A stretch of 64,000 nucleotides of DNA. Source: Escherichia coli (lineage in GTDB: Bacteria > Pseudomonadota > Gammaproteobacteria > Enterobacterales > Enterobacteriaceae). Shown here piece by piece: positions 25,408-62,443 of this stretch. The position numbers were made by a program, and so were the translations under genes. The notes below the pieces were generated by a model. That model ran no database searches. It saw only the letters and a program-made list of their open reading frames with translations, and was not told the origin of the DNA. Numbering within the stretch: position 1 is the stretch's first letter; every line of letters begins with the position of its first letter. Location: the NCBI RefSeq assembly GCF_003790525.1, contig NZ_CP033635.1; one strand, written 5' to 3'.

Positions 25408-25408
25408 A

Positions 25409-41891: not shown

Positions 41892-41923
41892 GTTGAGAAG
41901 TAATTTTTACCGGGAGGAAATTT

Positions 41924-45333: not shown

Positions 45334-45338
45334 GCAGA

Positions 45339-46010: not shown

Positions 46011-46011
46011 C

Positions 46012-47064
46012 GTGAGGGTATTAGTGACACCTGAAATTGCTCACCGTCTGGGGATTGTACTTTTCAGACCCGGTCCTGATGCGATGCCTTTGTTTATGCA
46101 GGGGCGTGTGCTGGTGGAGCCTGAACCGAAAAGCATGCGCGGTCTGCCGTCCGGAGTCGTTCCTGCCGTTCGCCAGCCGTTGGCGGAAGATAAATCATTA
46201 CTCCCATTTTTCAGCAATGAGCGTGTGATTCGTGCTGCCGGCGGCGCTGGTGCACTGTCTGACTGGCTGTTGCGTCATGTCAAATCCTGCCAGTGGCCTC
46301 ATGGTGACTATCATCACAGTGAAACCGTCATACATCGTTACGGTACCGGAGCGATGGTGTTGTGCTGGCACTGCGACAACCAGCTGCGTGACCAGACATC
46401 CGAATCACTTGAGCAACTTGCTCAACAAAACCAGGCAGAATGGATGATTGACGTCATACGCCATGCAATGAACGGCACGCAGGAGCGGGAATTATCGCTG
46501 GCTGAATTATGCTGGTGGGCGGTGTGCAATCAGGTGACGGATGCACTACCCGAGACAGTATTGAGTCGTTCGATGGGATTACCTGCGGAAAAAATACGCT
46601 CTGTATACCGCGAAAGCGACATCATACCAGGAGAAAAGACCGCCACCAGCATACTGAAACAGCGCACAAAAAATCTTGTGCTGCCGACCCACCAGCAACA
46701 GAACCGACCACAGGAAAATAAGGTGGTCACCCTTACCGTTGATCCCGATTCTCCGGCTCAGTATCTCCGGCGCCAGAAACCACAACGGGAAGAGATGCCC
46801 GTATACACGCGCTGGGTAAAAACGCAGAAATGCATGACGTGTGGCAATCAGGCAGATGATCCGCATCACATCATTGGTCATGGACTGGGAGGGATGGGAA
46901 CAAAGGCTGACGATTTATTTGTTATTCCGCTGTGTCGTAAATGCCACAACGAACTGCATGCCGGGGTAAAAGAATTTGAAGAAAAACACGGCAGCCAGCT
47001 GTTGTTGTTGATTTGTTTTTTAATGCACGCGAAAAATTCGGGCGTCCTGAAGTGGAATGCATAA
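46012..47064 (+). CDS. DUF968-like phage protein with C-terminal zinc-finger/HNH-like motif
   Basis: GTG start after ggagg RBS; C-terminal CMTCGNQADDPHHIIGHGLGGMG...CRKCHNELH. Confidence 0.65.
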   Translation: MRVLVTPEIAHRLGIVLFRPGPDAMPLFMQGRVLVEPEPKSMRGLPSGVVPAVRQPLAEDKSLLPFFSNERVIRAAGGAGALSDWLLRHVKSCQWPHGDYHHSETVIHRYGTGAMVLCWHCDNQLRDQTSESLEQLAQQNQAEWMIDVIRHAMNGTQERELSLAELCWWAVCNQVTDALPETVLSRSMGLPAEKIRSVYRESDIIPGEKTATSILKQRTKNLVLPTHQQQNRPQENKVVTLTVDPDSPAQYLRRQKPQREEMPVYTRWVKTQKCMTCGNQADDPHHIIGHGLGGMGTKADDLFVIPLCRKCHNELHAGVKEFEEKHGSQLLLLICFLMHAKNSGVLKWNA

Positions 47065-47430
47065 ATGACTGAACACATAGAATTTGTTTTGCCTTACCCG
47101 CCAACGGTGAATACTTACTGGCGACGTCGTGGCAGCACATATTTTGTATCAAAAGTCGGTGAACGTTATCGCCGGGATGTGGCGTTAATTGTTCGCCAAC
47201 AGCGGTTGAAATTAAACCTGTCCGGAAGGCTGGCAATAAAAATTATTGCAGAGCCACCGGATAAGCGCCGCCGCGACCTGGACAATATCCTGAAGGCACC
47301 ACTGGATGCACTGACGCATGCCGGACTATTCATAGACGACGAGCAGTTTGATGAAATTAATATTGTGCGCGGTCAGCCCGTTCCTGGTGGGCGGCTGGGG
47401 ATAAAAATCACAGAACTGGAGTGCGCATGA
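47065..47430 (+). CDS. rusA: Holliday junction resolvase RusA
   Basis: 121 aa with conserved RRDLDNILKAPLDAL motif. Confidence 0.85.
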   Translation: MTEHIEFVLPYPPTVNTYWRRRGSTYFVSKVGERYRRDVALIVRQQRLKLNLSGRLAIKIIAEPPDKRRRDLDNILKAPLDALTHAGLFIDDEQFDEINIVRGQPVPGGRLGIKITELECA

Positions 47431-48095
47431 ATAACCAGTATTTACAGTTTGTGCGTGAGCAGCTCATTATCGCCACCGCTGATTTGAGTGGGGCAACAAA
47501 AGGTCAGCTTGAAGCCTGGCAGGAGAATGCCATGTTCGATACAGGGCGTTACAGGCGTAAAAAAATCCGGTACCGCGATGAAGTGACTGGAAAAATGATA
47601 ACGCGGGATAATCCACCAATCCCGGGAAAACAATCGCTGGCGAAAGGCTCATCAATTGCCCTGGTCAGCCCGGTTGAGTTTTCGACATCATCATGGCGGC
47701 GGGCGGTTCTGTCTATTGAAGAACATCAGAAAGCCTGGTTGTTGTGGTGTTACAGCGGGAGTATTTGCTGGGAGTATCAGGTCACTATAACCCACTGGGC
47801 ATGGGAAGAGTTTAAGGCCCATTGTGGCAACAGGAAAATTGCAGAGAAAACACGGGAACGCCTGAAAAAATTAATCTGGCTGGCGGCGCAGGCAGTAAAA
47901 GCAGAAATTTTTGGTAAGGAAGGTTACGAATACCAGGATCTGGCATTACTGGCGGGAGTGACAGCCAAAAACTGGTCCAAAACATTTACTGGTCACTGGA
48001 TTGCAATGAAACACATTTTTCACCGGCTGGATAGTGAGGCTTTATTGTTTGTGACGAGAACACGTTCAAAACAAAAGGCGGCATTTTCACAGTAA
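47427..48095 (+). CDS. late-gene antiterminator Q-like protein
   Basis: ATGA overlap with rusA stop; sits before a promoter-terminator pair and the lysis genes, the lambdoid Q position. Confidence 0.6.
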   Translation: MNNQYLQFVREQLIIATADLSGATKGQLEAWQENAMFDTGRYRRKKIRYRDEVTGKMITRDNPPIPGKQSLAKGSSIALVSPVEFSTSSWRRAVLSIEEHQKAWLLWCYSGSICWEYQVTITHWAWEEFKAHCGNRKIAEKTRERLKKLIWLAAQAVKAEIFGKEGYEYQDLALLAGVTAKNWSKTFTGHWIAMKHIFHRLDSEALLFVTRTRSKQKAAFSQ

Positions 48096-48180
48096 AGTAT
48101 TGCAAAAGTAGATTAAAAGGCATATATTTCGTGTGAATTTGATATTCTGCCGATTTTGTACGTAATGGCAAATCAAGCAA

Positions 48181-48205
48181 AACCCGCCGCCGAGTGGGTT
48201 TTTTT
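48181..48205 (+). terminator. tR'-like terminator downstream of Q (late promoter region)
   Basis: hairpin aacccgc-cgccga-gtgggtt followed by seven T. Confidence 0.65.
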
Positions 48206-48345
48206 ATACCTGAAAAAGACACAGAACATTAAATGTGATGGCTATTGTGCTATGAGTTTTTCCTGCTATGAAGCTTCTTGACTACATGGAGCTCCATTTG
48301 TTATGCAATATATTGTTATGTTTTTGAGTTGTTAATGGTGTTGCT

Positions 48346-49059
48346 ATGGATGACAGTACTCTGCTCAGGTACTCTTCACTTTTTGTTGCTTATATGGGAT
48401 GTCTTGGGTGGGGAAGCGCTTACTTTTATGGCTGGGGTACATCCTTTTATTATGGTTTCCCATGGTGGGTGGTTGGGGCTGGTGTCGATGATGTGGCCAG
48501 AAGCCTTTTTTATGCCGTTACAGTCATTGTTATATTCCTGATTGGGTGGGGAGTCGGTGTTGTTTTCTTCCTGGGGATCAAACAAAAAAATAATGTGCAG
48601 GATCTGAGTTTTATCAGACTTTTTCTGGCGATATTGTTGCTTTTTGTTCCGCCTGCTCTGGAGTTTTCAGTAATTCATCGACGCGTTGCGCTAGATGCAT
48701 TGGTTTTATGCGTTATTGCTGCCTTAATAATTACGGTTTTTGTCAGGTCAGGAAGAAGACTTATTTCAGTCAAATGTTTTTCGGAAATGTCTTTTATTCG
48801 TCATCACTGGATTGAGTGTATGATGGTCGGATTCATGATCTATTTCTGGGGATTTTCACTTATTGCCGGTTGGTACAAACCCCAGTTTAAGAAGGAATAT
48901 CAGATGCTCCACTATGATAGTGTCTGGTATTATGTTCTTGCACGCTATGATGACAGGCTGGTGTTGTCGAAATCGTACAGTAATGGGAGTTCTACATTCG
49001 TTATACTTAATAGCGGGCAGATTGATGACTTCGAAGTTAATGTAGTCAGAGTGCGTTAA
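48346..49059 (+). CDS. membrane protein of unknown function (cargo between Q and tRNA genes)
   Basis: 237 aa; Trp/Gly-rich N-terminal TM helices plus hydrophilic C-terminal region; visibly AT-richer than flanking prophage genes. Confidence 0.6.
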   Translation: MDDSTLLRYSSLFVAYMGCLGWGSAYFYGWGTSFYYGFPWWVVGAGVDDVARSLFYAVTVIVIFLIGWGVGVVFFLGIKQKNNVQDLSFIRLFLAILLLFVPPALEFSVIHRRVALDALVLCVIAALIITVFVRSGRRLISVKCFSEMSFIRHHWIECMMVGFMIYFWGFSLIAGWYKPQFKKEYQMLHYDSVWYYVLARYDDRLVLSKSYSNGSSTFVILNSGQIDDFEVNVVRVR

Positions 49060-49181
49060 TATTGCCTGAGTAATTTTCTGTTGACCGCTCAAATTCTTTT
49101 ACCATGTGTAGGCCAATATGCAGGATTTAATCAGGGAAGGGTATTGCAGAGCAAAACTGGCATAAGTATTATTCCGCATAC

Positions 49182-49257
49182 GTCCCTTTAGCTCAGTGGT
49201 GAGAGCGAGCGACTCATAATCGCCAGGTCGCTGGTTCAAATCCAGCAAGGGCCACCA
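49182..49257 (+). tRNA. tRNA with CAU anticodon (Ile2/Met-type, ileZ-like)
   Basis: cloverleaf folds by eye: D stem GCTC/GAGC, anticodon loop CTCATAA, T loop TTCAAAT, CCA encoded; one mismatch at pair 2-71. Confidence 0.8.
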
Positions 49258-49258
49258 A

Positions 49259-49335
49259 CCGCCACTAGCTCATCAGGAGAGAGCATCAGCCTTCTAAGCT
49301 GACTGTGCGGGGTTCGAGTCCCCGGTGGCGGTCCA
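49259..49335 (+). tRNA. tRNA-Arg (UCU)
   Basis: cloverleaf folds by eye: D stem GCTC/GAGC, anticodon stem TCAGC/GCTGA, loop CTTCTAA, T stem CGGGG/CCCCG, CCA encoded. Confidence 0.85.
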
Positions 49336-49336
49336 G

Positions 49337-49410
49337 CGCCGACTTACCTCAGTCGGCAGAACAGTTTAGTTGTAACCATCAGGCCACCACTTCAATTCCG
49401 GTAGTCGGCA
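49337..49410 (+). tRNA. tRNA-like sequence, possibly degenerate third tRNA
   Basis: perfect 7-bp acceptor stem GCCGACT/AGTCGGC and TTCAATT T-loop-like motif, but no canonical D or anticodon arm and no CCA. Confidence 0.25.
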
Positions 49411-49750
49411 CTAAATTTCCAGGCTCGTGCTCACGGCCTGCTTCATATCCGCGCCAGGTCCGTCGCGATTAAACCACAGGGCTTTTCAGGAGGGGCCACA
49501 GAGAGCGTCACACTGACCATTCCCTGTGGCTTGTGCTGAGATCCGGTCAGTGAAATTGTGCAAAGGGAATCTTCGGGAGCTTTGGGCAGAATGTCAGTTA
49601 TTGATGTTGACATCCTCCACACCCTGAAGGTCGGGGTTTTACGGCGCACTGGATAAAATACCTGAACAAACAGCCTCTTCGTGCGGCTTTTTTATAACGA
49701 GATTCTGACTTGCTGCCGTCCGTAATGTCGGATGGCGGAGGTGAGGGACT

Positions 49751-50023
49751 ATGAGAATGGACGAACGATACAGTAACGCTGCATACGGCAGCGCAGGACT
49801 TGTTGCGTTCTTTGCCAGCCTGTCACTGCAGGATTGGGGATTTATTATCGGCGTGGCGTTCAGTATCATTCTTGGTGTTCTTACTTATCGCCTTAACAAA
49901 CGGGAGCAGGAAAAACGAACCCGCATATTGCTCGAAATTCTGGAACGAACTAATGCCGGTAATGTTCCGGCTACGGCACATGCTGTGGCTGAGATTGCGA
50001 AAAAGGCACCAAAAGAAATATGA
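49751..50023 (+). CDS. holin (two-TM, pinholin-like) with dual-start motif
   Basis: 90 aa; MRM dual start, two hydrophobic helices, charged C-terminus; RBS ggaggtgaggg. Confidence 0.7.
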   Translation: MRMDERYSNAAYGSAGLVAFFASLSLQDWGFIIGVAFSIILGVLTYRLNKREQEKRTRILLEILERTNAGNVPATAHAVAEIAKKAPKEI

Positions 50024-50179
50024 CGAATATCCCGGGAGTGAGGGGATAATATACCTTTTAACAAAATCCGGGAACATGAAACGCCCGGAACGTTTCATGA
50101 GACATGCCCCGTGGGGAGCAGGGCATAACTGTGCGGAATAGCTTTCATTGTGATATCAATAATCACGGTATTCAAAATA

Positions 50180-50557
50180 TTACGGGCCTGTGGGATCAGG
50201 TTGTTTTTTGTCTGATTCCAGAGGGAAGGGACGCTGTTTCGGTTCTCTGAACTTTAGTGATAATGAATTGAAAATCCTCATTTTTTGCTGCCATGCATAA
50301 TGTCTGTCCCATGAACAGGGGGGGCTCAATTCTTCATTCACCCATGCGTTAATATCTTGTTTCAGGTGTTGAAGCATATGGGGTGTTAATGCACTCATAA
50401 TAATATCCAGCGTTTTATGCGAGAGTTTACCGTAAGGGTCTGCAAGGATGCTGCTCGTTGCTTCGTTATTATCCACCATAAGTGGAAGTAGCGCTGATTT
50501 AACTTTTTCTGTCATTAGTTGCAAAAATCTACTGCGCAAATTTTCTTTACTGTTCAT
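50180..50557 (-). CDS. hypothetical protein encoded antisense inside the lysis cassette
   Basis: 125 aa hydrophilic ORF with gagg RBS; lies between 11-bp direct repeats at 50087 and 50607. Confidence 0.45.
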   Translation of the reverse strand: MNSKENLRSRFLQLMTEKVKSALLPLMVDNNEATSSILADPYGKLSHKTLDIIMSALTPHMLQHLKQDINAWVNEELSPPCSWDRHYAWQQKMRIFNSLSLKFREPKQRPFPLESDKKQPDPTGP

Positions 50558-50680
50558 TTCTGAAGCCTCATCTGTTGTCGTTTGGTTTTCCTGAACGGGT
50601 ATGTTTATGAGACATGCTGGTACTGGATTATATACCTGATATATCCAGGGCTATAAACCTTTAGATCCTGATAAATATAC

Positions 50681-51214
50681 ATGAACGCAAAAATCAGATA
50701 CGGCCTGTCGGCTGCCGTTCTGGCGCTGATTGGTGCTGGCGCATCTGCTCCTCAGATACTTGATCAGTTTCTGGACGAAAAAGAGGGTAACCACACAACG
50801 GCATACCGCGATGGTTCTGGCATATGGACCATCTGCCGCGGTGCCACGGTGGTGGATGGAAAACACGTTTTTCCCGGAATGAAGCTGTCGAAGGAAAAAT
50901 GCGCTCAGGTTAATGCCATTGAGCGTGATAAGGCGCTGGCATGGGTGGAGCGCAATATTAAAGTTCCACTGACCGAAGCACAGAAAGCGGGTATTGCGTC
51001 ATTCTGTCCCTATAACATTGGCCCCGGTAAGTGTTTCCCGTCGACGTTTTATAAGCGGCTTAATGCCGGTGATCGAAAAGGCGCCTGCGAGGCGATTCGC
51101 TGGTGGATAAAGGATGGTGGGCGCGATTGCCGCATACGTTCAAATAACTGCTATGGACAGGTTATTCGTCGTGACCAGGAAAGCGCATTAGCCTGTTGGG
51201 GGATAGATCAGTGA
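50681..51214 (+). CDS. SAR-type endolysin (phage lysozyme)
   Basis: 177 aa; N-terminal signal-anchor-release-like segment [15 protein letters not shown] followed by lysozyme-like catalytic region; precedes Rz/Rz1. Confidence 0.8.
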
Positions 51215-51678
51215 GCAGAGTCGCCGCGATTATTTATGCTCTGGTTATCTGCATCATCGTCTGCCTGTCGTTGGCGGTCAATCATTACCGTGATAACGCC
51301 ATAGCCTACAAAGAACAGCGTGATAAAAAAGTCAGTGAACTGAAGCAGGCGACCGCCACCATTACTGACATGCAGCAGCGTCAGCGTGATGTTGCTGCGC
51401 TCGATGCAAAGTACTCGAGAGAATTAGCCAATGCGAAAGCTGAAAATGAAACTCTGCGCGCTGATGTTGCCGCTGGCCGTAAGCGCCTGCGGGTCAATGC
51501 CAGTTGCTCCGAAGCCGTGCGTGAAGCCACCGGACCCACCAGCGTGGATAATGCAACCAGCCCCCGACTGGCAGACACCGCTGAACGGGATTATTTCACC
51601 CTCAGAGAACGGTTGATGACGATGCAGAAGCAACTGGAAGGGGCACAGGAGTATATCCGCACTCAGTGCATTAAGTAG
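51211..51678 (+). CDS. i-spanin Rz
   Basis: GTGA overlap with endolysin stop; N-terminal TM helix, coiled-coil periplasmic domain. Confidence 0.8.
51431..51616 (+). CDS. o-spanin Rz1 (lipoprotein embedded in Rz, +1 frame)
   Basis: [22 protein letters not shown] lipobox and Pro-rich [28 protein letters not shown], very similar to lambda Rz1. Confidence 0.8.
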
Positions 51679-51701
51679 CCTTTTTGTTATCAGGAGAATG
51701 T

Positions 51702-51971
51702 ATGAAGAAATTACTGGTAACCGCAAAGCTCTTTAATGGAAGAATCCCGTTCCGGATTTTACAGCGTGGTCGTGTTCTGGCTGAAGGTACATTCAGTGGT
51801 AAATGCACGGAATGTTATTCACGAATATATGAAGTGGATGCCACGGATGAAGATATAATCGTTGAGTGTAATGCCGGGATTGTATCGGCCACATTGCTTC
51901 ATGGGCGAATTGAGTTGTCGCTGGAGGATGCGGCAAATGAATTACCAACTGGCAAAACTTTATCGCGGTAA
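51702..51971 (+). CDS. hypothetical phage protein
   Basis: start MKKLLVTAK with RBS aggaga; overlaps next ORF in another frame. Confidence 0.45.
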   Translation: MKKLLVTAKLFNGRIPFRILQRGRVLAEGTFSGKCTECYSRIYEVDATDEDIIVECNAGIVSATLLHGRIELSLEDAANELPTGKTLSR

Positions 51972-52137
51972 ACATTTCGCAGGGTATGGGATTGCAGTTA
52001 ATGGTGAGTTACTGGAGGGGCAGCTTTCCGCCAGGACAGAGTCACGCGGAGGCGAGCCACCAACAGTCACTGTGACTTTCAGACTGACAGCAGAACATAT
52101 CGAGAATCAGCCCGTCATTCAACTGAACAGGGTGTGA
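51937..52137 (+). CDS. hypothetical phage protein
   Basis: start MNYQLAKLY with RBS ggagga; reading frame is open upstream to 51862. Confidence 0.4.
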   Translation: MNYQLAKLYRGKHFAGYGIAVNGELLEGQLSARTESRGGEPPTVTVTFRLTAEHIENQPVIQLNRV

Positions 52138-52144
52138 GGTATTT

Positions 52145-52231
52145 ATGCCATCACGAATCCCACGTGCCTGCCGTAAGCGTGGATGCGCAGGTACAATCAC
52201 AGACAGTTCTGGTTACTGCGATAAACATCGT
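52145..52231 (+). pseudogene. HNH endonuclease, N-terminal remnant
   Basis: MPSRIPRACRKRGCAGTITDSSGYCDKHR matches the characteristic start of phage HNH endonucleases; downstream sequence is unrelated AT-rich DNA. Confidence 0.45.
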
Positions 52232-52313
52232 GTGCGACCGTGGTTGCTCGGTATCTTTGTCTCTCTTGGTAACTTATTTGTTCGAACCGGTTTACAACTT
52301 ACAGGATATAAAC

Positions 52314-52763
52314 ATGCAAGAAGAAGCAAATAAAATTCTTGTTGATTTATTGACGAAGGCCAGCGATGGAATTGATTCCGCCATTGCATTCAGTCAGGCT
52401 CAGATTCCGGATGTTGTTCATCAGTTGCTGGTATGGAATATGGTTGATAGCCTGATTAAAACATTAATAGCCATTTCAACAATCCCTCTGGTTTTCTGGT
52501 TTATGAAGAAGCAGTGCCAAAGAGTTGAGACAGGTAAAATCGGTGATGAAGGATATTCATGGGAGAAGGGAAATCCCAAATACAGGCCGACAATGGTTTG
52601 GGATAGCAAAGGTGATATTAATCTTCTTATCGTGCCATTGGTTGGAGTTTTGACTATGTGGGGGATTTTTATTATTTGTGCAGTAACCAATATGACATGG
52701 TTAAAAATCTGGCTGGCACCTAAGTTATATCTAATCGAATACGCAGCATCACTAATTAAATAG
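52314..52763 (+). CDS. membrane protein of unknown function (AT-rich moron)
   Basis: start MQEEANKIL with agga RBS; two predicted TM helices; hairpin terminator just downstream. Confidence 0.55.
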   Translation: MQEEANKILVDLLTKASDGIDSAIAFSQAQIPDVVHQLLVWNMVDSLIKTLIAISTIPLVFWFMKKQCQRVETGKIGDEGYSWEKGNPKYRPTMVWDSKGDINLLIVPLVGVLTMWGIFIICAVTNMTWLKIWLAPKLYLIEYAASLIK

Positions 52764-53194
52764 TCCATTACAAAAGCCATTCGCTACAGAGTGGCTTTGA
52801 TAATGGCTTATACCCTGTACGGGATAACTTAATTGATATCCCTTTTAACGGATAAAGGTATTCAAGCCTGACACATCATTCGCTATATAGTCGCCGTATT
52901 CCCGTATGAACAGAAACCGTAGCCCGACGGGGAACTCCTTCTGCGCGAGTGTGCGGGAATAATCAAAAACGATGTACACCGGGTTTTTACCGCGTTAATG
53001 ATTCGCGGGTTTATCCCTCATAGTCGCCTGTCCGGTGCGATGGTGGAAGAAACCGGAAGCTGTATTACAGAAAGTGCTACTACTGTATCCTGATGCGATG
53101 TATGTAATGTGAGTCAGATAATGGCACAGGATGTGGTGATGTGGCAGTCTGGAACACAGGATATATTGTCAGAATAAGACCCGTAGGAATAAAA

Positions 53195-53521
53195 ATGAAA
53201 AGACGCCTTTCACTACTTTTTCTGTTATCTGCCCTGGCAGTGGGATGCTCGCAGCAAAAAGCTGATGAGCCCCGGCAATTAGTGACGGTGTATCCACGAT
53301 ATCCGGAATATGCTGCAGCAAATTATATCAAGGGGCTGGTTGAGGTTAAGTTCGATATTGGTGCTGACGGGACTGTGACACGGATCGTTTTTCTCCGCTC
53401 AGAGCCTCATAATTTGTTTCGTGATGAAGTGGTGAAGGCCATGGCGAAATGGAGATTTGAAAAGAATAGTCCCCGTCAGGGAGTGAAGAGACAATTTATC
53501 TTTACGCCATCACGTCCCTGA
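53195..53521 (+). CDS. lipoprotein consisting of a TonB C-terminal-like domain
   Basis: start MKRRLSLLFLLSALAVGCSQQ (lipobox LAVGC); region YPRYPEYAAANYIKGLVEVKFDIGADGTVTRIVFL...FRDEVVKAMAKWRFE aligns with host TonB C-terminus [32 protein letters not shown]...[15 protein letters not shown] in this window. Confidence 0.7.
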   Translation: MKRRLSLLFLLSALAVGCSQQKADEPRQLVTVYPRYPEYAAANYIKGLVEVKFDIGADGTVTRIVFLRSEPHNLFRDEVVKAMAKWRFEKNSPRQGVKRQFIFTPSRP

Positions 53522-53885
53522 TGCTTCCAGGTAGAGAGGGGCTGGAAGCAGGAGAAAAATGAAAGAGCCAGCGGTTATATTTTTGTCATGGCTGACGAGA
53601 AATGATGGAAGAAGGCGTTGTATGCCACACAACGCCTCACTGTTCATTTCTTCTTTTTCTCTGGTGTAACCCGATGAATAAGAGTTGCACTGGTTTCCGG
53701 TGAGATGGCGATATGCTCGGGCAAAGTATGCTGGCAGTTTTCCAACTGGTCAAAAATATCTGCTCTCGTCTGTTGCAATGCCTGCAGCATGCGGCGGCAA
53801 TGCGCCTTTGCTTTTGCTAACCATCTTTCCTTCCTCTATCAGTCGCTGCGTGAACTCATCATGGAATACCAGGTAAATGCGGATG

Positions 53886-54137
53886 TTATCGGTTTTGGCT
53901 ACGCAGCATAGTACAAAACGGACAGGTGCATCCCGGAATGGGGGAGGCGTCACATGTCCCTGTGATGGTTGTTCCGGGTAATGCACTGTGTGGGGCATAA
54001 AAATGTCCGATAATTTTACTTTCTACCGCAGTTAGTTGATTCGTTGGTCCTGGTAGCACATTGGGCGAGGGTTTAAATGCCAGGCAACTGAAGGATGATG
54101 TTGCAAGGGAGATAGCGAGAATATTTCTGATTTTCAT
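53886..54137 (-). CDS. small secreted Cys-rich protein
   Basis: start MKIRNILAISLATSSFSCLA signal peptide; C-terminal Cys cluster TGTCDASPIPGCTCPFC. Confidence 0.45.
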   Translation of the reverse strand: MKIRNILAISLATSSFSCLAFKPSPNVLPGPTNQLTAVESKIIGHFYAPHSALPGTTITGTCDASPIPGCTCPFCTMLRSQNR

Positions 54138-54287
54138 TTGATGATGCCTCTGTGTGAAATGACGGTAAACGACGCACTTGTGCCGGCACATAATAGCAAG
54201 CATCAGAATAGATCAGATTCGATTCTTGCTGTAAGTGATAATTATTCTCGTTTTTTCGGGTCCTTTCCGGCGATCCAACAGGTTACG

Positions 54288-54299
54288 GGGCGTCGACCT
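54288..54299 (+). other. cos site cohesive-end sequence (cosN), lambda-like
   Basis: ...ccggcgatccaacaggttacg GGGCGTCGACCT cgcgggttttcgctatttatg closely matches the remembered lambda cos junction; about 180 bp upstream of Nu1. Confidence 0.7.
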
Positions 54300-54476
54300 C
54301 GCGGGTTTTCGCTATTTATGAAAATTTTCCGGTTTAAGGCATTTCCGTTCTTCTTCGTCGTAACTTAATGTTTTTATTTAAAATACCCCCTGAAAAGAAA
54401 GGAAACGACAGGTGCTGAAAACGAGCTTTTGGGCCTCTGTCGTTTCCTTTCTCTGTTTTTGGCCGTGGAATGAACA

Positions 54477-55025
54477 ATGGAAGTCAACAAAAAGCAGCTG
54501 GCTGACATTTTCGGTGCGAGTATCCGTACCATTCAGAACTGGCAGGAGCAGGGAATGCCCGTTCTGCGAGGCGGTGGGAAGGGTAATGAGGTGCTTTATG
54601 ACTCTGCCGCCGTCATAAAATGGTATGCCGAAAGGGATGCTGAAATTGAGAACGAAAAGCTGCGCCGGGAGGTTGAAGAACTGCGGCAGGCCAGCGAGAC
54701 AGATCTGCAGCCCGGTACGATTGATTACGAACGCTACCGTCTCACAAAAGCACAGGCAGATGCGCAGGAACTGAAAAATGCTCGTGAAGAAGGGCTGGTT
54801 CTTGAAACGGAATTATTTACCTACATTTTTCAGCGAGTTGCGCAGAATATATCCGGGATCCTTGTTCGTGTTCCGCAGACACTGCAGCGTAAATACCCTG
54901 ATATATCACCAGCACATCTTGATGCTGTGAAAACTGAAATCGCGAAAGCATCCGATGTGGCTTCTGAATCAGGTGAGAATGTGTGGAGGTGGATTGATGA
55001 TTTCAGACGAGCTGAGGGCGGCTAA
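54477..55025 (+). CDS. nu1: terminase small subunit
   Basis: [42 protein letters not shown] matches lambda Nu1 N-terminus. Confidence 0.92.
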
Positions 55026-56925
55026 CTCTACAGGAGCGATAACGACTGGTCTCCTTGCGCTAAAAATTCCTGTACCCCTGACGACAGTTCAGTGGGCAGA
55101 TCAACATTATTACCTGCCGAAAGAGTCGTCTTACACACCAGGGCGGTGGGAAACATTGCCGTTTCAGGTTGCCATAATGAACAGTATGGGTAATGACCTG
55201 ATCCGCACTGTTAATCTGATTAAATCTGCCCGTGTTGGTTATACAAAAATGCTGTTGGGAGTGGAGGCTTATTTTATTGAGCATAAATCCCGCAACAGTC
55301 TGCTTTTTCAGCCCACGGACTCAGCTGCTGAAGATTTTATGAAATCTCATGTTGAGCCAACGATAAGGGATGTTCCTGCATTGCTGGAGCTGGCTCCATG
55401 GTTCGGAAGAAAACACCGCGATAATACGCTCACCCTGAAGCGTTTTTCCTCCGGTGTGGGGTTCTGGTGTCTGGGTGGTGCGGCAGCAAAAAACTACCGT
55501 GAAAAATCCGTGGATGTGGTCTGTTATGACGAGCTTTCCTCGTTCGAACCGGATGTTGAAAAAGAGGGCTCGCCAACCCTGCTGGGGGATAAGCGTATTG
55601 AGGGCTCTGTATGGCCAAAATCCATTCGCGGCTCGACGCCTAAAATCAAAGGCTCCTGCCAGATCGAAAAAGCCGCTAACGAGTCGGCACATTTCATGCG
55701 TTTTTATGTGCCCTGCCCGCACTGTGGGGAGGAGCAGTATCTGAAATTTGGCGATGAATCCACGCCTTTTGGCCTTAAATGGGAGAAGGAAAGCCCCGAA
55801 AGCGTTTTCTACCTTTGTGAGCATCATGGCTGTGTGATCCATCAGTCTGAGCTTGACCAGAGTAACGGGCGGTGGATCTGTGAAAACACGGGCATGTGGA
55901 CCCGTGACGGCCTGATGTTTTTCAGCGCCCGGGGTGATGAAATTCCGCCGCCGCGCTCCATCACTTTCCATATCTGGACGGCGTACAGTCCGTTCACCAC
56001 CTGGGTACAGATTGTCTATGACTGGCTGGATGCACTGAAAGATCCCAACGGCCTGAAAACCTTTGTGAACACCACGCTGGGCGAGACCTGGGAAGAGGCC
56101 GTGGGCGAAAAACTCGATCACCAGGTACTGATGGATAAGGTTGTGCGTTACACGGCGGCGGTGCCTGCCCGGGTGGTTTATCTGACGGCGGGCATTGACT
56201 CGCAGCGAAACCGTTTTGAGATGTATGTCTGGGGATGGGCTCCGGGAGAGGAAGCCTTTCTGGTGGATAAAATCATTATTATGGGGCGTCCCGATGAGGA
56301 AGAGACACTGTTACGTGTGGATGCAGCGATCAACAAAAAATACTGCCATGCAGACGGAACCGAAATGACCATTTCCCGTGTCTGCTGGGACATCGGGGGG
56401 ATCGATGGCGAAATCGTTTATCAGAGGTCAAAAAAACACGGTGTTTTCCGGGTGCTGCCGGTAAAAGGCGCATCTGTCTATGGCAAGCCGGTGATCACCA
56501 TGCCAAAAACCCGCAATCAGCGGGGCGTGTATCTGTGTGAAGTGGGCACGGACACCGCAAAAGAAATTCTCTATGCCCGTATGAAAGCCGCTCCCACGCC
56601 TGCGGATGAATCCACGTCGTATGCCATCCGTTTTCCTGATGATCCGGAGATTTTTTCGCAGACAGAGGCGCAGCAACTGGTCGCGGAAGAGCTTGTGGAG
56701 AAGTGGGAAAAAGGAAAGATGCGTCTGCTGTGGGATAACAAAAAGCGGCGTAACGAAGCGCTGGACTGCCTGGTGTATGCCTACGCGGCATTACGTGTGT
56801 CCGTGCAACGCTGGCAGCTTGATCTGGCTGTACTGGCAAAATCCCGGGAAGAAGAGACGACCCGGCCAACCCTTAAAGAACTGGCAGCGAAGCTGTCCGG
56901 AGGAGTGAATGGTTACAGTCGCTGA
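54997..56925 (+). CDS. A: terminase large subunit
   Basis: start [11 protein letters not shown] overlapping Nu1 3' end; Walker-like ATPase region and close match to lambda gpA. Confidence 0.92.
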
Positions 56926-57115
56926 ACTGCAGGCGCTGCGTCAGGCGCGCCTTGATTTATTAACCGGTAAACGGGTGGTGTCTGTCCAGAAAGATGGTCG
57001 CAGAATTGAATATACGGCGGCTTCTCTGGATGAGCTTAACCGGGCGATCAATGATGCGGAGTCGGTACTGGGGACAACCCGACGTCGCCGTCGTCCGCTG
57101 GGAGTGAGGTTATGA
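56909..57115 (+). CDS. W: head-tail joining protein W
   Basis: 68 aa, ...LTGKRVVSVQKDGRRIEYTAASL... matches lambda gpW. Confidence 0.88.
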   Translation: MVTVAELQALRQARLDLLTGKRVVSVQKDGRRIEYTAASLDELNRAINDAESVLGTTRRRRRPLGVRL

Positions 57116-58704
57116 AAAGAACGCCTGTCCTGATTGATGTGAACGGCGTTCCGCTTCGTGAGAGTCTCAGCTACAACGGGGGCGGCGCAGGATTTGGCGG
57201 GCAAATGGCGGAGTGGTTGCCACCGGCGCAGAGTGTCGATGCGGCCCTGCTGCCCGCGTTGCGTCTGGGGAATGCCCGGGCAGATGATCTGGTGCGCAAT
57301 AACGGAATAGCGGCTAATGCGGTGGCCCTGCATAAGGATCACATAGTCGGGCATATGTTTCTGATCAGCTACCGTCCGAACTGGCGCTGGCTGGGGATGC
57401 GGGAGACCGCAGCAAAAAGCTTTGTCGATGAGGTGGAGGCGGCCTGGTCGGAATACGCCGAAGGGATGTCTGGCGAGATCGACGTGGAAGGAAAACGCAC
57501 GTTCACGGAATTTATCCGGGAAGGCGTGGGCGTTCATGCGTTTAACGGCGAAATCTTTGTGCAGCCGGTCTGGGATGCGGAGACTACGCAGCTGTTTCGT
57601 ACGCGTTTTAAAGCCGTGAGTCCGAAACGGGTGGACACGCCAGGATACGGTTTGGGGAACCGCTTTCTGCGGGCCGGGGTGGAGGTCGATCGGCATGGAC
57701 GGGCCGTTGCGTACCATATCTGTGAGGATGATTTTCCGCTCTCTGGTAGTGGACGATGGGAACGGATCCCGCGTGAACTTCCCACCGGGCGTCCGGCCAT
57801 GCTGCATATTTTCGAGCCGGTTGAGGACGGGCAGACCCGTGGGGCTAATCAGTTTTACAGCGTCATGGAACGGCTGAAAATGCTCGATTCCCTGCAGGCA
57901 ACACAGCTTCAGTCAGCCATAGTGAAGGCGATGTATGCAGCGACGATTGAAAGTGAACTTGATACCGAAAAGGCCTTTGAATATATCGCCGGTGCGCCGC
58001 AGGGGCAGAAGGATAATCCGCTTATTAATATTCTGGAGAAGTTCTCCAGCTGGTATGACACGAATAACGTGACACTGGGCGGTGTCAAAATTCCGCACCT
58101 TTTCCCCGGTGATGATCTGAAACTACAGACTGCGCAGGATTCAGACAATGGATTTTCTGCGCTTGAACAGGCGCTGCTGCGGTATATCGCCGCCGGTCTT
58201 GGCGTTTCCTACGAACAGTTGTCCCGTGATTACTCGAAGGTCAGTTATTCAAGTGCCCGCGCCTCCGCCAATGAGTCGTGGCGCTATTTTATGGGGCGGC
58301 GAAAATTTATTGCGGCCCGGCTGGCCACGCAGATGTTTTCCTGCTGGCTGGAAGAGGCTCTTCTGCGGGGGATTATTCGTCCGCCACGGGCGCGTTTTGA
58401 TTTTTATCAGGCGCGTTCATCCTGGTCACGGGCAGAGTGGATTGGAGACGGAAGAATGGCCATTGACGGGCTCAAGGAGGTCCAGGAATCGGTGATGCGC
58501 ATTGAGGCCGGACTGAGCACGTATGAGAAAGAGCTGGCGCTGATGGGTGAGGATTATCAGGACATTTTCCGCCAGCAGGTCAGGGAATCTGCAGAGCGGG
58601 AAAAAGCCGGACTCTCACGTCCGGTGTGGATAGCGCAGGCGTATCAGCAGCAGATAGCGGCGAGTCGCAGGCCGGAAGAGGAGACAACACCACGTGAGAC
58701 GTAA
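57112..58704 (+). CDS. B: portal protein
   Basis: 530 aa, lambda gpB-like, position after W. Confidence 0.9.
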   Translation: MKRTPVLIDVNGVPLRESLSYNGGGAGFGGQMAEWLPPAQSVDAALLPALRLGNARADDLVRNNGIAANAVALHKDHIVGHMFLISYRPNWRWLGMRETAAKSFVDEVEAAWSEYAEGMSGEIDVEGKRTFTEFIREGVGVHAFNGEIFVQPVWDAETTQLFRTRFKAVSPKRVDTPGYGLGNRFLRAGVEVDRHGRAVAYHICEDDFPLSGSGRWERIPRELPTGRPAMLHIFEPVEDGQTRGANQFYSVMERLKMLDSLQATQLQSAIVKAMYAATIESELDTEKAFEYIAGAPQGQKDNPLINILEKFSSWYDTNNVTLGGVKIPHLFPGDDLKLQTAQDSDNGFSALEQALLRYIAAGLGVSYEQLSRDYSKVSYSSARASANESWRYFMGRRKFIAARLATQMFSCWLEEALLRGIIRPPRARFDFYQARSSWSRAEWIGDGRMAIDGLKEVQESVMRIEAGLSTYEKELALMGEDYQDIFRQQVRESAEREKAGLSRPVWIAQAYQQQIAASRRPEEETTPRET

Positions 58705-60199
58705 TCTTTCACACATTATTGCCGCAGCATTCAATGAACCGCTGCTTCTGGAGCCCGCCTATGCGCGGGTTTTCTTTTGCGCGCTCGGGCGCGAGATGGG
58801 GGCAGCAAGTCTTTCGGTACCACAACAGCAGGTACAGCTTGATGCTCCCGGAATGCTGGCTGAAACGGACGAGTACATGGCCGGAGGTAAACGACCGGCC
58901 CGTGTTTACCGGGTGGTGAACGGTATTGCTGTACTGCCGGTGACCGGCATGCTGGTGCACCGGCTGGGTGGTATGCGGCCATTTTCCGGAATGACAGGCT
59001 ATGACGGCATTGTCGCCTGTCTTCAGCAGGCAATGGCGGACACCGCTGTCCGGGGCGTACTGCTGGACATTGACAGTCCGGGCGGGCAGGCCGCAGGCGC
59101 GTTTGACTGCGCTGACATGATTTACCGCCTCCGTCAGCAGAAGCCGGTCTGGGCAGTGTGCAATGACACGGCCTGTTCTGCAGCCATGCTGCTGGCGTCG
59201 GCCTGCTCCCGACGGCTGGTTACCCAGACATCCCGTATCGGCTCCATTGGCGTGATGATGAGCCATCTCAGCTATGCCGGTCATCTGGCGCAGGCCGGTG
59301 TGGATATCACGCTGATTTATGCCGGGGCGCACAAGGTGGATGGCAATCAGTTTGAAGCCTTACCGGAAGAGGTGCGTCAGGACATGCAGCAGCGCATTGA
59401 TGCGGCACACCGGATGTTTGCCGAAAAAGTGGCGATGTATACCGGGCTGTCTGTGGATGTGGTCACGGGAACAGAGGCCGCCGTTTTTGAAGGTCAGTCC
59501 GGCATTGAGGCCGGGCTGGCGGATGAATTAGTCAATGCGTCGGATGCCATCAGTGTGATGACCACGGCGCTGTACACACATGATACAGGAGGCACTATGC
59601 CGCAATTAACTGCAACGGAAGCCGCCGCGCAGGAGAACCAGCGAGTGATGGGGATCCTGACGAGTAAGGAAGCGAAAGGACGTGAACAGCTTGCCACGAT
59701 GCTGGCGGGACAACAGGGCATGAGCGTTGAACAGGCCCGGGAGATCCTGGCCGCGGCGGCACCACAGCAGCCGGTGGCATCCGCGCAGAGTGAAGCCGAT
59801 CGCATTATGGCGTGTGAAGAGGCGAAAGGTCGTGAACAACTGGCGGCAACGCTGGCGGCGATGCCGGAGATGACGGTGGAAAAAGCCCGCCCGATCCTGG
59901 CAGCTTCACCGCAGGCGGATGCCGGACCATCACTCCGTGATCAGATCATGGCCCTGGATGAGGCAAAAGGGGCTGAGGCGCAGGCTGAACAGCTGGCTGC
60001 CTGCCCGGGAATGACCGTGGAGAACGCCCGGGCTGTGCTGGCTGCGGGATCAGGTAAGGCAGAACCGGTCTCTGCATCCACAACCGCCATGTTTGAACAT
60101 TTCATGGCGAACCATTCACCGGCAGCGGTACAGGGTGGCGTGCCACAGACGTCAGCAGACGGTGATGCGGACGTGAAAATGCTCATGGCCATGCCATGA
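58694..60199 (+). CDS. C: head maturation protease C with nested scaffold (Nu3-like) region, carrying internal tandem repeats
   Basis: GTG start; N-terminal ClpP/S49-like protease region matches lambda gpC; C-terminal part has three copies of an approx 40-aa motif (EAKGREQLA...MTVE.AR.ILAA). Confidence 0.85.
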   Translation: MRRNLSHIIAAAFNEPLLLEPAYARVFFCALGREMGAASLSVPQQQVQLDAPGMLAETDEYMAGGKRPARVYRVVNGIAVLPVTGMLVHRLGGMRPFSGMTGYDGIVACLQQAMADTAVRGVLLDIDSPGGQAAGAFDCADMIYRLRQQKPVWAVCNDTACSAAMLLASACSRRLVTQTSRIGSIGVMMSHLSYAGHLAQAGVDITLIYAGAHKVDGNQFEALPEEVRQDMQQRIDAAHRMFAEKVAMYTGLSVDVVTGTEAAVFEGQSGIEAGLADELVNASDAISVMTTALYTHDTGGTMPQLTATEAAAQENQRVMGILTSKEAKGREQLATMLAGQQGMSVEQAREILAAAAPQQPVASAQSEADRIMACEEAKGREQLAATLAAMPEMTVEKARPILAASPQADAGPSLRDQIMALDEAKGAEAQAEQLAACPGMTVENARAVLAAGSGKAEPVSASTTAMFEHFMANHSPAAVQGGVPQTSADGDADVKMLMAMP

Positions 60200-60235
60200 A
60201 GCCAGTGCTGACCATCAATAGGAGGTTTTGACAAT

Positions 60236-60583
60236 ATGGTAACGAAAACCATCACTGAACAGCGTGCGGAAGTACGTATTTTTGCCGGTAATGATCCGGC
60301 TCACACCGCCACAGGCAGCAGCGGGATTTCCTCGGCAACACCGGCACTGACGCCCCTGATGCTGGATGAAGCCACCGGGAAACTGGTGGTCTGGGACGGA
60401 CAGAAAGCCGGAGGTGCGGTTGGCATACTGGTACTGCCGCTTGAAGGCACAGAGACGGTGCTGACGTATTACAAGTCGGGGACTTTTGCGACGGAGGCAA
60501 TCCGCTGGCCTGACAGTGTGGATGAACACAAAAAGGCCAACGCCTTTGCAGGCAGTGTCCTGAGTCACGCGGCGCTGCCGTAA
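60236..60583 (+). CDS. D: head decoration protein D
   Basis: 115 aa, ...DPAHTATGSSG...TPLMLDEATGKLVVWDG... matches lambda gpD. Confidence 0.88.
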   Translation: MVTKTITEQRAEVRIFAGNDPAHTATGSSGISSATPALTPLMLDEATGKLVVWDGQKAGGAVGILVLPLEGTETVLTYYKSGTFATEAIRWPDSVDEHKKANAFAGSVLSHAALP

Positions 60584-60640
60584 CACGTTATCAGGCCACC
60601 GCGGTGGCCTGACTGATTTCTGAATGAAAGGAACTGATTT

Positions 60641-61669
60641 ATGGGATTGTTTACGACCCGCCAGTTACTCGGTTATACCGAACAAAAAGTGAAATTTCGT
60701 GCGCTGTTTCTGGAGCTGTTTTTCCGTCGTACGGTGAATTTCCATACCGAAGAGGTGATGCTGGACAAAATTACCGGAAAAACGCCGGTGGCGGCCTATG
60801 TCTCCCCGGTTGTTGAAGGAAAAGTGCTGCGTCATCGTGGTGGTGAAACCCGCGTCTTGCGTCCGGGATACGTCAAGCCGAAACACGAATTTAATTCCCG
60901 GCAGGCGGTTGAGCGCCTTCCTGGTGAAGATCCGGCTCAACTGAACGATCCGGCTTACCGCCGTCTGCGTATCATTACCGATAACCTCAAACAGGAAGAG
61001 TACGCGATTGTCCAGGTGGAAGAAATGCAGGCGGTAAATGCCGTGCTGTATGGCAAATACACCATGGAAGGAGACCAGTTCGAGAAAATTGAGGTCGATT
61101 TTGGCAGATCGCCGGCGAATAACATTACGCAGGCCAGTGGTAAAAAATGGTCTGAGCACGATCGTGACACGTTCGATCCTGCGCATGATATTGACCTCTA
61201 CTGCGACCAGGCCAGCGGCCTTGTGAATATTGCCATTATGGACGGTAGCGTCTGGCGTCTGCTGAATGGTTTTAAGCTGTTCCGCGAAAAACTGGATACC
61301 CGTCGCGGTTCAAATTCGCAACTCGAAACGGCAGTGAAAGACCTGGGGGCGGTGGTGTCTTTCAAAGGGTATTACGGTGATCTGGCCATTGTGGTGGCGA
61401 AAACGTCTTATGTGGCAGAGGACGGTACCGAAAAACGTTATCTGCCAGACGGCACGCTGGTCCTGGGGAATACTGCTGCAGATGGGATCCGTTGTTACGG
61501 TGCCATTCAGGATGCACAGGCGTTGTCTGAAGGCGTGGTGGCCTCTTCCCGTTATCCGAAACACTGGCTGACGGTGGGGGATCCCGCCCGTGAATTTACC
61601 ATGACGCAGTCCGCGCCGCTGATGGTGTTGCCGGACCCGGATGAGTTTGTGGTGGTACAGGTGAAATAA
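60641..61669 (+). CDS. E: major capsid protein E
   Basis: 342 aa, ...TPGYVKPKHE..., ...TRRGSNS.LETAVKDLG..., ...YPKHW.TVGDPAREFTM.QSAPLM matches lambda gpE. Confidence 0.92.
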   Translation: MGLFTTRQLLGYTEQKVKFRALFLELFFRRTVNFHTEEVMLDKITGKTPVAAYVSPVVEGKVLRHRGGETRVLRPGYVKPKHEFNSRQAVERLPGEDPAQLNDPAYRRLRIITDNLKQEEYAIVQVEEMQAVNAVLYGKYTMEGDQFEKIEVDFGRSPANNITQASGKKWSEHDRDTFDPAHDIDLYCDQASGLVNIAIMDGSVWRLLNGFKLFREKLDTRRGSNSQLETAVKDLGAVVSFKGYYGDLAIVVAKTSYVAEDGTEKRYLPDGTLVLGNTAADGIRCYGAIQDAQALSEGVVASSRYPKHWLTVGDPAREFTMTQSAPLMVLPDPDEFVVVQVK

Positions 61670-61720
61670 TCCGTGAGCGGGGGCGAAATGCCCCCGTGTC
61701 TTTTTTCACAGAGGCCTGAT

Positions 61721-62432: not shown

Positions 62433-62443
62433 AAGGGGGATGT

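What the first reader, a model, noticed from the sequence alone, without database searches (positions are those of the whole stretch)
54281..54300. cos site is lambda-like but the cohesive end differs at one position
The junction ...caacaggttacg / GGGCGTCGACCT / cgcgggttttcgct matches the lambda cos region as I remember it, but the 12-nt cohesive end reads GGGCGTCGACCT rather than lambda GGGCGGCGACCT (G to T at position 6). A changed overhang would affect cos compatibility with lambda packaging extracts and mixed concatemers.
Basis: partly seen in the sequence, partly recalled or inferred. Interest (0 to 1): 0.3.

Follow-up and report, generated by a model that had tools for sequence, protein, structure and literature searches.

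The report
Rare single-base variant of lambda cos
The DNA-cutting site (cos) of a lambda-like prophage in this E. coli window differs from phage lambda's at one central base of the 12-base sticky end. This is a rare but genuine natural allele that is probably harmless, so the finding is real but ordinary.

Summary
Window 54288-54299 reads GGGCGTCGACCT, where lambda and the closest phages read GGGCGGCGACCT; the changed base (G6T) is at 54293. It lies in a complete lambda-type cos (cosQ, cosN, R3-I1-R2-R1) directly upstream of intact terminase and head genes.

It is not a sequencing error or a private mutation. The same T occurs at 14 places in 11 of 5,426 complete E. coli genomes (canonical G: 7,728 places), at 13 cos sites in IMG/VR and in one Superficieibacter genome, on many different flanks. 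In 82 cos sites not selected on cosN, positions 1-5 are essentially invariant, position 6 is G78/T3/A1, and positions 7-10 and 12 vary freely.

The prophage's 21-kb left arm is 99.9-100% identical in strains whose chromosomal flanks differ by about 2%. That indicates recent horizontal spread while carrying T, so the site most likely works. No terminase residue tracks the allele.

The predicted effects are small: about 1.3 kcal/mol weaker end annealing, loss of the central symmetric pair, and one mismatch with lambda ends. Published work shows a two-base end mismatch costs only about 4-fold in yield. No sequenced virion has these ends, so function is inferred, not shown. Interest is low.

The parts
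54258..54264 (+). cosQ (GGGTCCT), the packaging-termination signal, 30 to 24 bp upstream of the cohesive end
   Evidence: Exact match to lambda cosQ at lambda spacing. Its role is taken from Feiss et al. 2015.
54286..54301 (+). cosN, the 16-bp nicking site (CG GGGCGTCGACCT CG), including the conserved CG pairs that flank both nick positions
   Evidence: The 16-bp definition comes from Murialdo & Feiss 2022. Rotationally symmetric base pairs fall from 10 to 8.
54288..54299 (+). Predicted 12-nt 5' cohesive end, GGGCGTCGACCT. The left end of the virion DNA would start at 54288 and the top-strand right end would stop at 54287.
   Evidence: Homology to the annotated lambda cos site. The nick positions are inferred, not measured.
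54293..54293 (+). The variant base: T where lambda has G (cohesive-end position 6). It creates GTCGAC.
   Evidence: The same T is present in independent assemblies whose prophage arm is 99.9-100% identical.
54337..54352 (+). cosB R3, a TerS binding site (AGGCATTTCCGTTCTT). It has A at 54341 where lambda has G (lambda bp 54).
   Evidence: R3 spans bp 50-65 and the contact segment bp 55-63, per Murialdo & Feiss 2022. The same A occurs in 9 G-type cos sites.
54353..54395 (+). I1 region (the IHF bending site between R3 and R2), assigned by position and homology only
   Evidence: The alignment to lambda shows 2 substitutions in this interval. A strict WATCAANNNNTTR scan found no match, so the assignment rests on homology to lambda.
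54396..54411 (-). cosB R2 (inverted R site), identical to lambda
54437..54452 (+). cosB R1, identical to lambda
54477..55025 (+). terS (Nu1 homologue, 182 aa). It is a natural chimera: residues 1-75 match lambda Nu1 at 74/75 (DNA-binding domain), while residues 111-182 match at 20/72.
   Evidence: PHROG 57, E=9e-67; segment identities
54997..56925 (+). terL (gpA homologue, 642 aa, intact). It is 65.8% identical to lambda gpA and 99.8% identical to TUM1886 WP_103856322.1.
   Evidence: PHROG 15, E=0
54304..54740 (+). Packaging-specificity cassette (cosB plus roughly the first 85 codons of terS). Within the stretch compared, it is the only diverged block between the window and TUM1886 prophage a; outside it there are only isolated single-base differences.
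   Evidence: Identity profile in 50-nt windows. The boundaries are approximate, to about 25 bp.
56909..63411 (+). Head and neck genes: W, portal, protease/scaffold, decoration, major capsid, FI, FII, Z-like and U-like. All are full length.
   Evidence: PHROG matches; W ORF
33012..54257 (.). Prophage left arm: integrase (33012-34142, minus strand) next to ompW, RecE-like exonuclease, regulators, replication genes, Q and lysis genes. The prophage runs past the end of the window.
   Evidence: PHROG matches. It is 100.0% identical over 21.3 kb to TUM1886 prophage a.

Best explanation
This is the working cos site of an apparently intact lambda-family prophage, integrated beside ompW in an E. coli chromosome.

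Inferred mechanism, from lambda. TerS dimers bind the lambda-type R sites of cosB, with IHF bending the DNA at I1. This positions TerL on cosN. TerL nicks the bottom strand after position 12 and the top strand before position 1, and the ends are then separated. The result is a 12-nt 5' overhang, GGGCGTCGACCT on the left end and its exact complement on the right end. Packaging ends at the next cos, which needs cosQ.

Nature of the variant. The T at position 6 is a rare, inherited natural allele of cosN, not damage. It lies at the centre of the site, 6 bp from either nick, at the inner edge of the zone where lambda-like cosN sequences vary naturally.

Expected effects are small. The sticky-end duplex is slightly weaker (about +1.3 kcal/mol). 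The central symmetric base pair is lost. A single T·C or G·A mismatch would form if an end ever pairs with a canonical G-type end.

The allele spreads among phages and satellites by recombination or end joining at cosN itself.
For: Shown:
- The cos architecture is complete and lambda-like, with intact terS, terL and head genes.
- The T is reproduced in independent assemblies. There are 14 places in 11 complete E. coli genomes, 13 real cos sites in IMG/VR and one Superficieibacter genome. These sit on at least 11 left-flank and 13 right-flank haplotypes, several of which also occur with G or A.
- In a sample of 82 sites not selected on cosN, positions 1-5 are essentially invariant (one probably misaligned exception). 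Position 6 is G78/T3/A1. Positions 7-10 and 12 are variable, and position 11 and the flanking CG pairs are fixed.
- The window prophage's 21.3-kb left arm is 99.9-100% identical in TUM1886, F1022 and LR-31, at the same att site.
- The adjacent chromosome differs by 2.1-2.3% right up to the prophage boundary, and at least 3 host backgrounds are involved. This indicates recent transfer as a phage carrying T.
- T-type sites pair with three TerL lineages (about 100%, 93% and 66% identical to the window's). No nuclease-domain residue is specific to T carriers: I466 and T534 also occur with G-type cos, and a G-type relative has a TerL 97.8% identical.

From the literature:
- The terminases tested are not specific for cosN alleles, and ends mismatched at two positions remain viable (PMC4669245).

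Calculated:
- Nearest-neighbour dG37 is -18.19 kcal/mol for lambda and -16.85 for the T allele. Symmetric base pairs fall from 10 to 8 of 16.
Against: - No virion DNA ends have been determined for any T-type element.
- No phage record among the 50,697 in GenBank/INPHARED has the T-type end in the contexts I tested. The two phages with the most divergent cohesive ends I examined (PhiR46_1 and YDC107_1, both GGGCGGAAGGCG) still keep G at position 6.
- G is strongly preferred: about 99.8% of comparable E. coli sites and 95% of the unselected sample. Non-G may therefore carry a small cost.
- Feiss et al. place bp 1-6 in the half of cosN that is under selection, and a left-half mutation (G2C) lowers yield about 10-fold.
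- Some T carriers have broken packaging genes: an IS66-like insertion in terL of strain 24A16 and a truncated portal gene in GF4.
- The window ends before the tail genes and attR, so I could not verify that the prophage is complete.
Confidence: 0.75

Rival explanations
1. The T is a mildly deleterious or inactivating mutation in a prophage lineage that is decaying. Nicking at cosN is impaired, and the element persists mainly as a resident prophage.
For: - Position 6 belongs to the left half of cosN, which is described as being under selection; G2C costs about 10-fold in yield (PMC4669245).
- The allele is very rare.
- No sequenced virion carries it.
- Two T carriers have disrupted terL or portal genes.
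Against: - All visible packaging and head genes in the window are full length.
- A near-identical prophage arm sits in at least 3 divergent host backgrounds. This requires recent mobility.
- The allele occurs on many unrelated flanks, with three TerL lineages and in another genus. That is not the pattern of a dead-end lesion.
- The position is 6 bp from each nick and borders the naturally variable zone.
Confidence: 0.15
2. The T allele is adaptive. It would define a separate cohesive-end compatibility class that keeps co-resident phages and satellites matched to one another, or isolates them from G-type competitors.
For: - Three of the 11 T-carrying genomes have two T-type cos sites. In TUM1886 they are two different prophages.
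- Satellite-like contig L025 has two inverted cos sites, and both are T.
- T-type cos also occurs in the satellite-like PKF11 element.
Against: - Co-occurrence is more simply explained by recombination between co-resident elements. TUM1886 prophages a and b share an identical TerL and portal protein.
- A single central mismatch should be tolerated, since a two-base mismatch costs only about 4-fold.
- No terminase change accompanies the allele.
- The same flank haplotypes occur with G, T and A.
Confidence: 0.06
3. Base 54293 is a sequencing or assembly error in this record.
For: Only one assembly of the window is available to me, and no complete E. coli genome matches the 40-nt cos core exactly.
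Against: Independent assemblies from Japan, Ecuador and France have a prophage arm 99.9-100% identical to the window's and carry the same T. So do many unrelated contigs.
Confidence: 0.01

Closest known systems
Bacteriophage lambda cos (cosQ-cosN-cosB, with TerS = gpNu1 and TerL = gpA)
   Same: - cosQ GGGTCCT is identical.
- The cohesive end matches at 11 of 12 bases, and the CG pairs flanking the nicks are the same.
- R2 and R1 are identical and R3 matches at 15/16, all at lambda spacing.
- The TerS DNA-binding domain matches at 74/75.
- The gene order is the same: terS, terL, W, portal, protease, D, E.
   Different: - There is G6T in the cohesive end.
- R3 has A at lambda bp 54.
- The TerS C-terminal third is only 20/72 identical, and TerL only 65.8% identical, to lambda's.
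- The left flank (lysis-side module) is unrelated to lambda beyond about 60 bp.
Natural cosN variants of lambda-like phages described by the Feiss laboratory (N15 and phiD326 differ at bp 9 and 12; Gifsy-1 at bp 8, 9 and 11; mEp213/LLS at bp 9 and 10)
   Same: Same kind of phenomenon: natural base substitutions inside the 12-nt cohesive end of otherwise conserved cos sites.
   Different: All variants described in the papers I could read lie in the right half (bp 7-12). This one is at bp 6, nominally in the conserved left half, although my survey shows bp 6 is the one left-half position that varies. Vahanian et al. 2017 (Virology 509:140) may already list it, but I could not read that paper.
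Prophages a and b of E. coli TUM1886 (NZ_CP128970.1)
   Same: - Prophage a matches the window at 100.0% over the 21.3-kb left arm, has the same att site and carries the same T.
- Prophage b has an identical cosN, cosB and TerS protein, and its TerL is 99.8% identical.
   Different: - Prophage a has a different cosB/TerS-N-terminal cassette (+17 to about +450).
- Prophage b has a different left flank from -7 outward.
- The window combines the left side of a with the right side of b.

Membership tests
[quoted passage not shown] | 12-bp cohesive-end sequence with significant identity to lambda GGGCGGCGACCT | tested here: met
   11/12 identical. This is the only such site in the window.
[quoted passage not shown] | Conserved 5'-CG-3' base pairs flanking both nick positions | tested here: met
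   The site reads ...TTACG|GGGCGTCGACCT|CGCG.... These positions are about 99-100% conserved in 82 sampled sites.
[quoted passage not shown] | cosQ (GGGTCCT) about 30 bp upstream of the top-strand nick | tested here: met
   54258-54264, an exact match at lambda spacing
[quoted passage not shown] | Complex cosB: R3, then the I1 site, then inverted R2, then R1, at fixed distance from cosN, followed by terS | tested here: met
   R3 is at 54337-52 (15/16), R2 at 54396-411 and R1 at 54437-52 (both 16/16), and terS starts at 54477. I1 is assigned by homology only.
[quoted passage not shown] | Ten of 16 cosN base pairs in two-fold rotational symmetry | tested here: not met
   8 of 16: the central 6/7 pair is lost through G6T. 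This feature describes lambda and is not required for membership. Other natural members, such as GGGCGGAAGGCG in PhiR46_1, also lack it.
[quoted passage not shown] | Terminase actually cuts here, giving 12-nt 5' overhangs on virion DNA | not testable with these tools
   This needs virion DNA end mapping. The only support is indirect: recent horizontal spread.
lambda packaging specificity (as opposed to 21 or N15 specificity) | TerS winged-helix recognition domain and R-site sequences of lambda type | tested here: met
   TerS residues 1-75 match lambda Nu1 at 74/75. R2 and R1 are identical to lambda, and the R3 contact segment (bp 55-63) is identical.
lambda packaging specificity (as opposed to 21 or N15 specificity) | Packaged by lambda terminase in vivo or in vitro | not testable with these tools
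   Requires a helper-packaging or in-vitro packaging experiment.

The most novel reading that the evidence does not exclude
T (or A) at position 6 marks a distinct cohesive-end compatibility group. The group would be shared, under selection, by co-resident lambdoid prophages and capsid-encoding satellites, so that helper and satellite, or recombining phages, keep perfectly matched ends. This would explain why T-type cos sites cluster within genomes: 3 of the 11 carrier genomes have two, and one satellite contig has both of its inverted cos sites T-type.
Probability: 0.06. Interest if true: 0.45.

Novelty: new member of a known kind. Interest (0 to 1): 0.15.

Why it matters
The finding matters only modestly.

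It shows that natural variation in lambda-like cohesive ends reaches bp 6, one position further left than the variants described in the papers I could read. That refines which cosN bases terminase actually needs: bp 1-5, bp 11 and the flanking CG pairs.

In practice, a T-type phage or a cosmid derived from it would carry a SalI/HincII site inside cos. It would also form one mismatch with lambda ends, which is expected to be tolerated.

The context is more instructive than the base change. Near-identical prophages differ only by a cosB/TerS-N-terminal cassette of about 430 bp that begins at cosN. This shows cosN acting as a recombination boundary for swapping packaging specificity.

Tried and rejected
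- **Exact 25-nt variant pattern.** It found nothing in IMG/VR or in GTDB representative genomes. The pattern demanded too much flank. A 19-nt pattern with H at position 6 then found the real sites.
- **GTDB scan.** 31 of its 32 hits were chance matches in high-GC genomes with no cosQ, and I discarded them.
- **TerL co-variation.** Six columns looked T-specific against only 3 G-type comparators. With 52 TerLs, the two nuclease-domain residues (I466, T534) also occur with G-type cos. A third TerL lineage has T-type and G-type partners with the same residues at those columns. What remains (T16, L68) lies in the N-terminal region next to cos, where linkage explains it.
- **Published phenotype of a bp-6 mutant.** Xu & Feiss 1991, Vahanian et al. 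2017 and Higgins & Becker 1994 are not held. The string GGGCGTCGACCT occurs in no searchable paper.
- **A sequenced phage with T at position 6.** Three megablast queries and one blastn query against GenBank phages found none. The two best candidates turned out to read GGGCGGAAGGCG.
- **IHF consensus scan.** It found no strict match in the I1 interval, so I1 is assigned by homology only.

Full report
**1. The observation**

The window reads ...caacaggttacg GGGCGTCGACCT cgcgggttttcgct... The 12-mer lies at 54288-54299 and T is at 54293. In lambda DE3 the feature annotated 'cos site' is GGGCGGCGACCT.

A 12-mer with one mismatch could arise by chance (0.17 expected per window). The surroundings settle the matter:
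- cosQ (GGGTCCT) is at 54258-54264.
- The conserved CG pairs flank both nick positions.
- R3 is at 54337-54352, inverted R2 at 54396-54411 and R1 at 54437-54452, all at lambda spacing.
- Bases +13 to +200 are 96.8% identical to lambda.

**2. The context**

The window is E. coli: the chromosomal flank is 99.6% identical to strain SMS-3-5. A lambdoid prophage begins at the integrase gene (33012-34142, minus strand) beside ompW and runs off the end of the window.

PHROG searches give full-length matches along the whole visible prophage:
- integrase, a RecE-like exonuclease, regulators and a replication protein
- Q and endolysin
- TerS (54477-55025), TerL (54997-56925, 642 aa) and W
- portal, protease/scaffold, decoration protein and major capsid protein
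- FI, FII, and Z-like and U-like proteins

The packaging enzyme is a natural hybrid. TerS residues 1-75, the winged-helix DNA-binding domain, match lambda Nu1 at 74/75, but residues 111-182 match at only 20/72. TerL is 65.8% identical to lambda gpA. The phage should therefore have lambda packaging specificity while using a different TerL lineage.

**3. How common the T is**

I used a 40-nt megablast query centred on the variant, so that every 28-base seed spans it. The results:
- T form: 14 places in 11 of 5,426 complete E. coli genomes
- Canonical G form: 7,728 places in 4,279 genomes

T is thus about 0.2% of comparable sites. GenBank phages contain none.

A 19-nt pattern allowing any non-G base at position 6 found 17 real cos sites in IMG/VR, each with cosQ present: 13 with T, 4 with A and none with C. 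It also found one T-type site in a Superficieibacter genome. The other 31 GTDB hits were chance matches in high-GC genomes.

Across all the loci collected, T sits on at least 11 different left flanks and 13 different right flanks. Several flank haplotypes occur with G, T and A.

To see position 6 in proportion, I collected cos sites anchored only on cosQ and the downstream CTATTTATGA. This gave 82 new sites:

| Position | Result |
|---|---|
| 1-5 | essentially invariant (one probably misaligned exception) |
| 6 | G 78, T 3, A 1 |
| 7 | 3 variant |
| 8 | 5 variant |
| 9 | 15 variant |
| 10 | 6 variant |
| 11 | invariant |
| 12 | 16 variant |
| Flanking CG pairs | invariant or nearly so |

The literature I could read states that natural variation lies in bp 7-12 and that bp 1-6 and cosQ are under selection (PMC4669245; PMC12315714). 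My survey agrees, with one refinement: bp 6 is the single left-half position that varies.

**4. Descent and spread**

The window's left arm (33000-54300, 21.3 kb) compares as follows:
- 100.0% identical to prophage a of strain TUM1886 (Japan)
- 99.9% identical to a prophage of F1022 (France)
- 100% identical, over 87% coverage, to one of LR-31 (Ecuador)

All are integrated beside ompW and all carry T.

The chromosome immediately outside the prophage is only 97.7-97.9% identical between the window and those strains (80-86 mismatches in 4.1 kb). TUM1886 differs from LR-31/F1022 by 1.5%. A prophage arm that is essentially identical across at least three divergent host backgrounds points to recent horizontal transfer. 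That in turn implies packaging from this cos. This is the strongest evidence, although indirect, that the T-type site works.

**5. Mosaic structure at cos**

- Against TUM1886 prophage a, the window is identical up to +16. It then diverges to 44-70% identity until about +450 and is identical again from there, apart from isolated single-base differences. The replaced block is cosB plus roughly the first 85 codons of terS, which is the specificity module.
- That block, and everything to its right, matches TUM1886 prophage b at 99.5-100%. Prophage b also has T, but its left flank differs from -7 outward.
- LR-31 has the same left arm joined to a third cosB type.

The crossover points therefore fall within about 33 bp centred on cosN. 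Possible mechanisms are homologous exchange in this conserved core, recombination stimulated by terminase cutting, or annealing of cohesive ends between co-infecting genomes. I did not test these.

**6. Does the enzyme co-vary with the site?**

No. Six TerL columns separated 10 T carriers from 3 G-type comparators. With 52 full-length TerLs from loci of known allele, the picture changes:
- Both nuclease-domain residues (I466 and T534) also occur with G-type cos.
- T-type sites pair with three TerL lineages (about 100%, 93% and 66% identical to the window's).
- In the 66% lineage, T-type and G-type partners have the same residues at those columns.
- A G-type relative has a TerL 97.8% identical to the window's.

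**7. Expected physical consequences**

- The nearest-neighbour free energy of the 12-bp duplex changes from -18.19 to -16.85 kcal/mol.
- G+C content falls from 10/12 to 9/12.
- Rotationally symmetric base pairs in the 16-bp cosN fall from 10 to 8, because the central pair is lost.
- A GTCGAC palindrome (a SalI site) is created.
- Because both ends of a chromosome derive from the same cosN sequence, self-cyclization stays perfectly matched.
- Pairing with a G-type end would give one central mismatch. Feiss et al. found that a two-position mismatch (lambda/N15) reduced viable yield only about 4-fold. They also found that lambda-specific and N15-specific terminases packaged either cosN allele equally well.

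**8. What remains uncertain**

- No virion ends are known for any T-type element, and no sequenced phage has T at position 6. The two phages with the most divergent ends I examined (PhiR46_1 and YDC107_1, GGGCGGAAGGCG) differ from lambda at five of the six right-half positions yet keep G6.
- The strong excess of G suggests that non-G may carry a small cost.
- I could not read the two papers most likely to report bp-6 data, Xu & Feiss 1991 and Vahanian et al. 2017.
- The window ends before the tail genes and attR.

**9. Verdict**

The feature is real and correctly described. It is a rare, inherited and probably near-neutral allele of an otherwise standard lambda-type cos site, in a prophage that has recently moved between hosts. 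The proposed incompatibility with lambda is at most a modest quantitative effect. Interest is low (0.15), and I class the novelty as a new member of a known kind.

Noticed in passing
window 54304-54740, compared with L008 (TUM1886 prophage a), L011 (LR-31) and L184 (TUM1886 prophage b): Otherwise near-identical prophages carry different cosB/TerS-N-terminal cassettes of about 430 bp. Each cassette starts within about 16 bp of cosN and ends near TerS codon 85. This is natural swapping of the packaging-specificity module with cosN as the left boundary.
   Followed up: partly
window 54477-55025 (terS) and 54997-56925 (terL): TerS is a natural chimera: its lambda-type DNA-binding domain matches lambda Nu1 at 74/75, while its C-terminal third matches at only 20/72. 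It is paired with a TerL only 65.8% identical to lambda gpA.
   Followed up: yes
window 54341 (lambda bp 54, within R3): R3 reads AGGCATTTCC where lambda has AGGCGTTTCC. The change lies one base outside the TerS contact segment (bp 55-63) and is shared by 9 G-type cos sites and TUM1886 prophage b.
   Followed up: partly
L009 (E. coli PKF11, NZ_CP156706.1 2088001-2094032); PKF4 gave a similar match: A T-type cos lies in what looks like a capsid-encoding satellite, not a phage. The gene order is SSB, PerC, major capsid protein, decoration protein, connector, cos, TerS, and then the chromosomal thiM gene.
   Followed up: no
IMG/VR loci L069, L090, L108, L111, L112, L113, L127 (G-type) and L025 (both T-type): These contigs carry two lambda-like cos sites in convergent orientation, roughly 500-870 bp apart. 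In L113 one cos precedes a satellite TerS gene. The other, beyond the 3' end of that gene, has cosQ and a phage-like R3 but no terS after it. Its role is unknown.
   Followed up: partly
E. coli TUM1886, LH50-c and F1022: Three of the 11 T-carrying genomes have two T-type cos sites, far more than a frequency of about 0.2% per site predicts. In TUM1886 the two prophages share an identical TerL and portal protein. This suggests exchange between co-resident prophages.
   Followed up: partly
L272 (phage PhiR46_1, PV340565.1) and L273 (YDC107_1, CP025712.1): These phage records have a lambda-type cosB but the cohesive end GGGCGGAAGGCG. It differs from lambda at positions 7, 8, 9, 10 and 12 while keeping positions 1-6 and 11.
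   Followed up: yes
IMG/VR loci L016, L019, L028, L029: An A allele at position 6 (GGGCGACGACCT) also exists. In L016 it sits on flanks identical to lambda's over the 40 bp upstream and 60 bp downstream that I compared. No real cos site had C at this position.
   Followed up: partly
window 25000-28868: The chromosomal segment beyond yciI has no match in the corresponding flank of TUM1886, LR-31 or F1022, which carry kch and cls there. In E. coli relatives of the window, an 'LTA synthase family protein' is annotated somewhere under the aligned 26000-34200 region.
   Followed up: no
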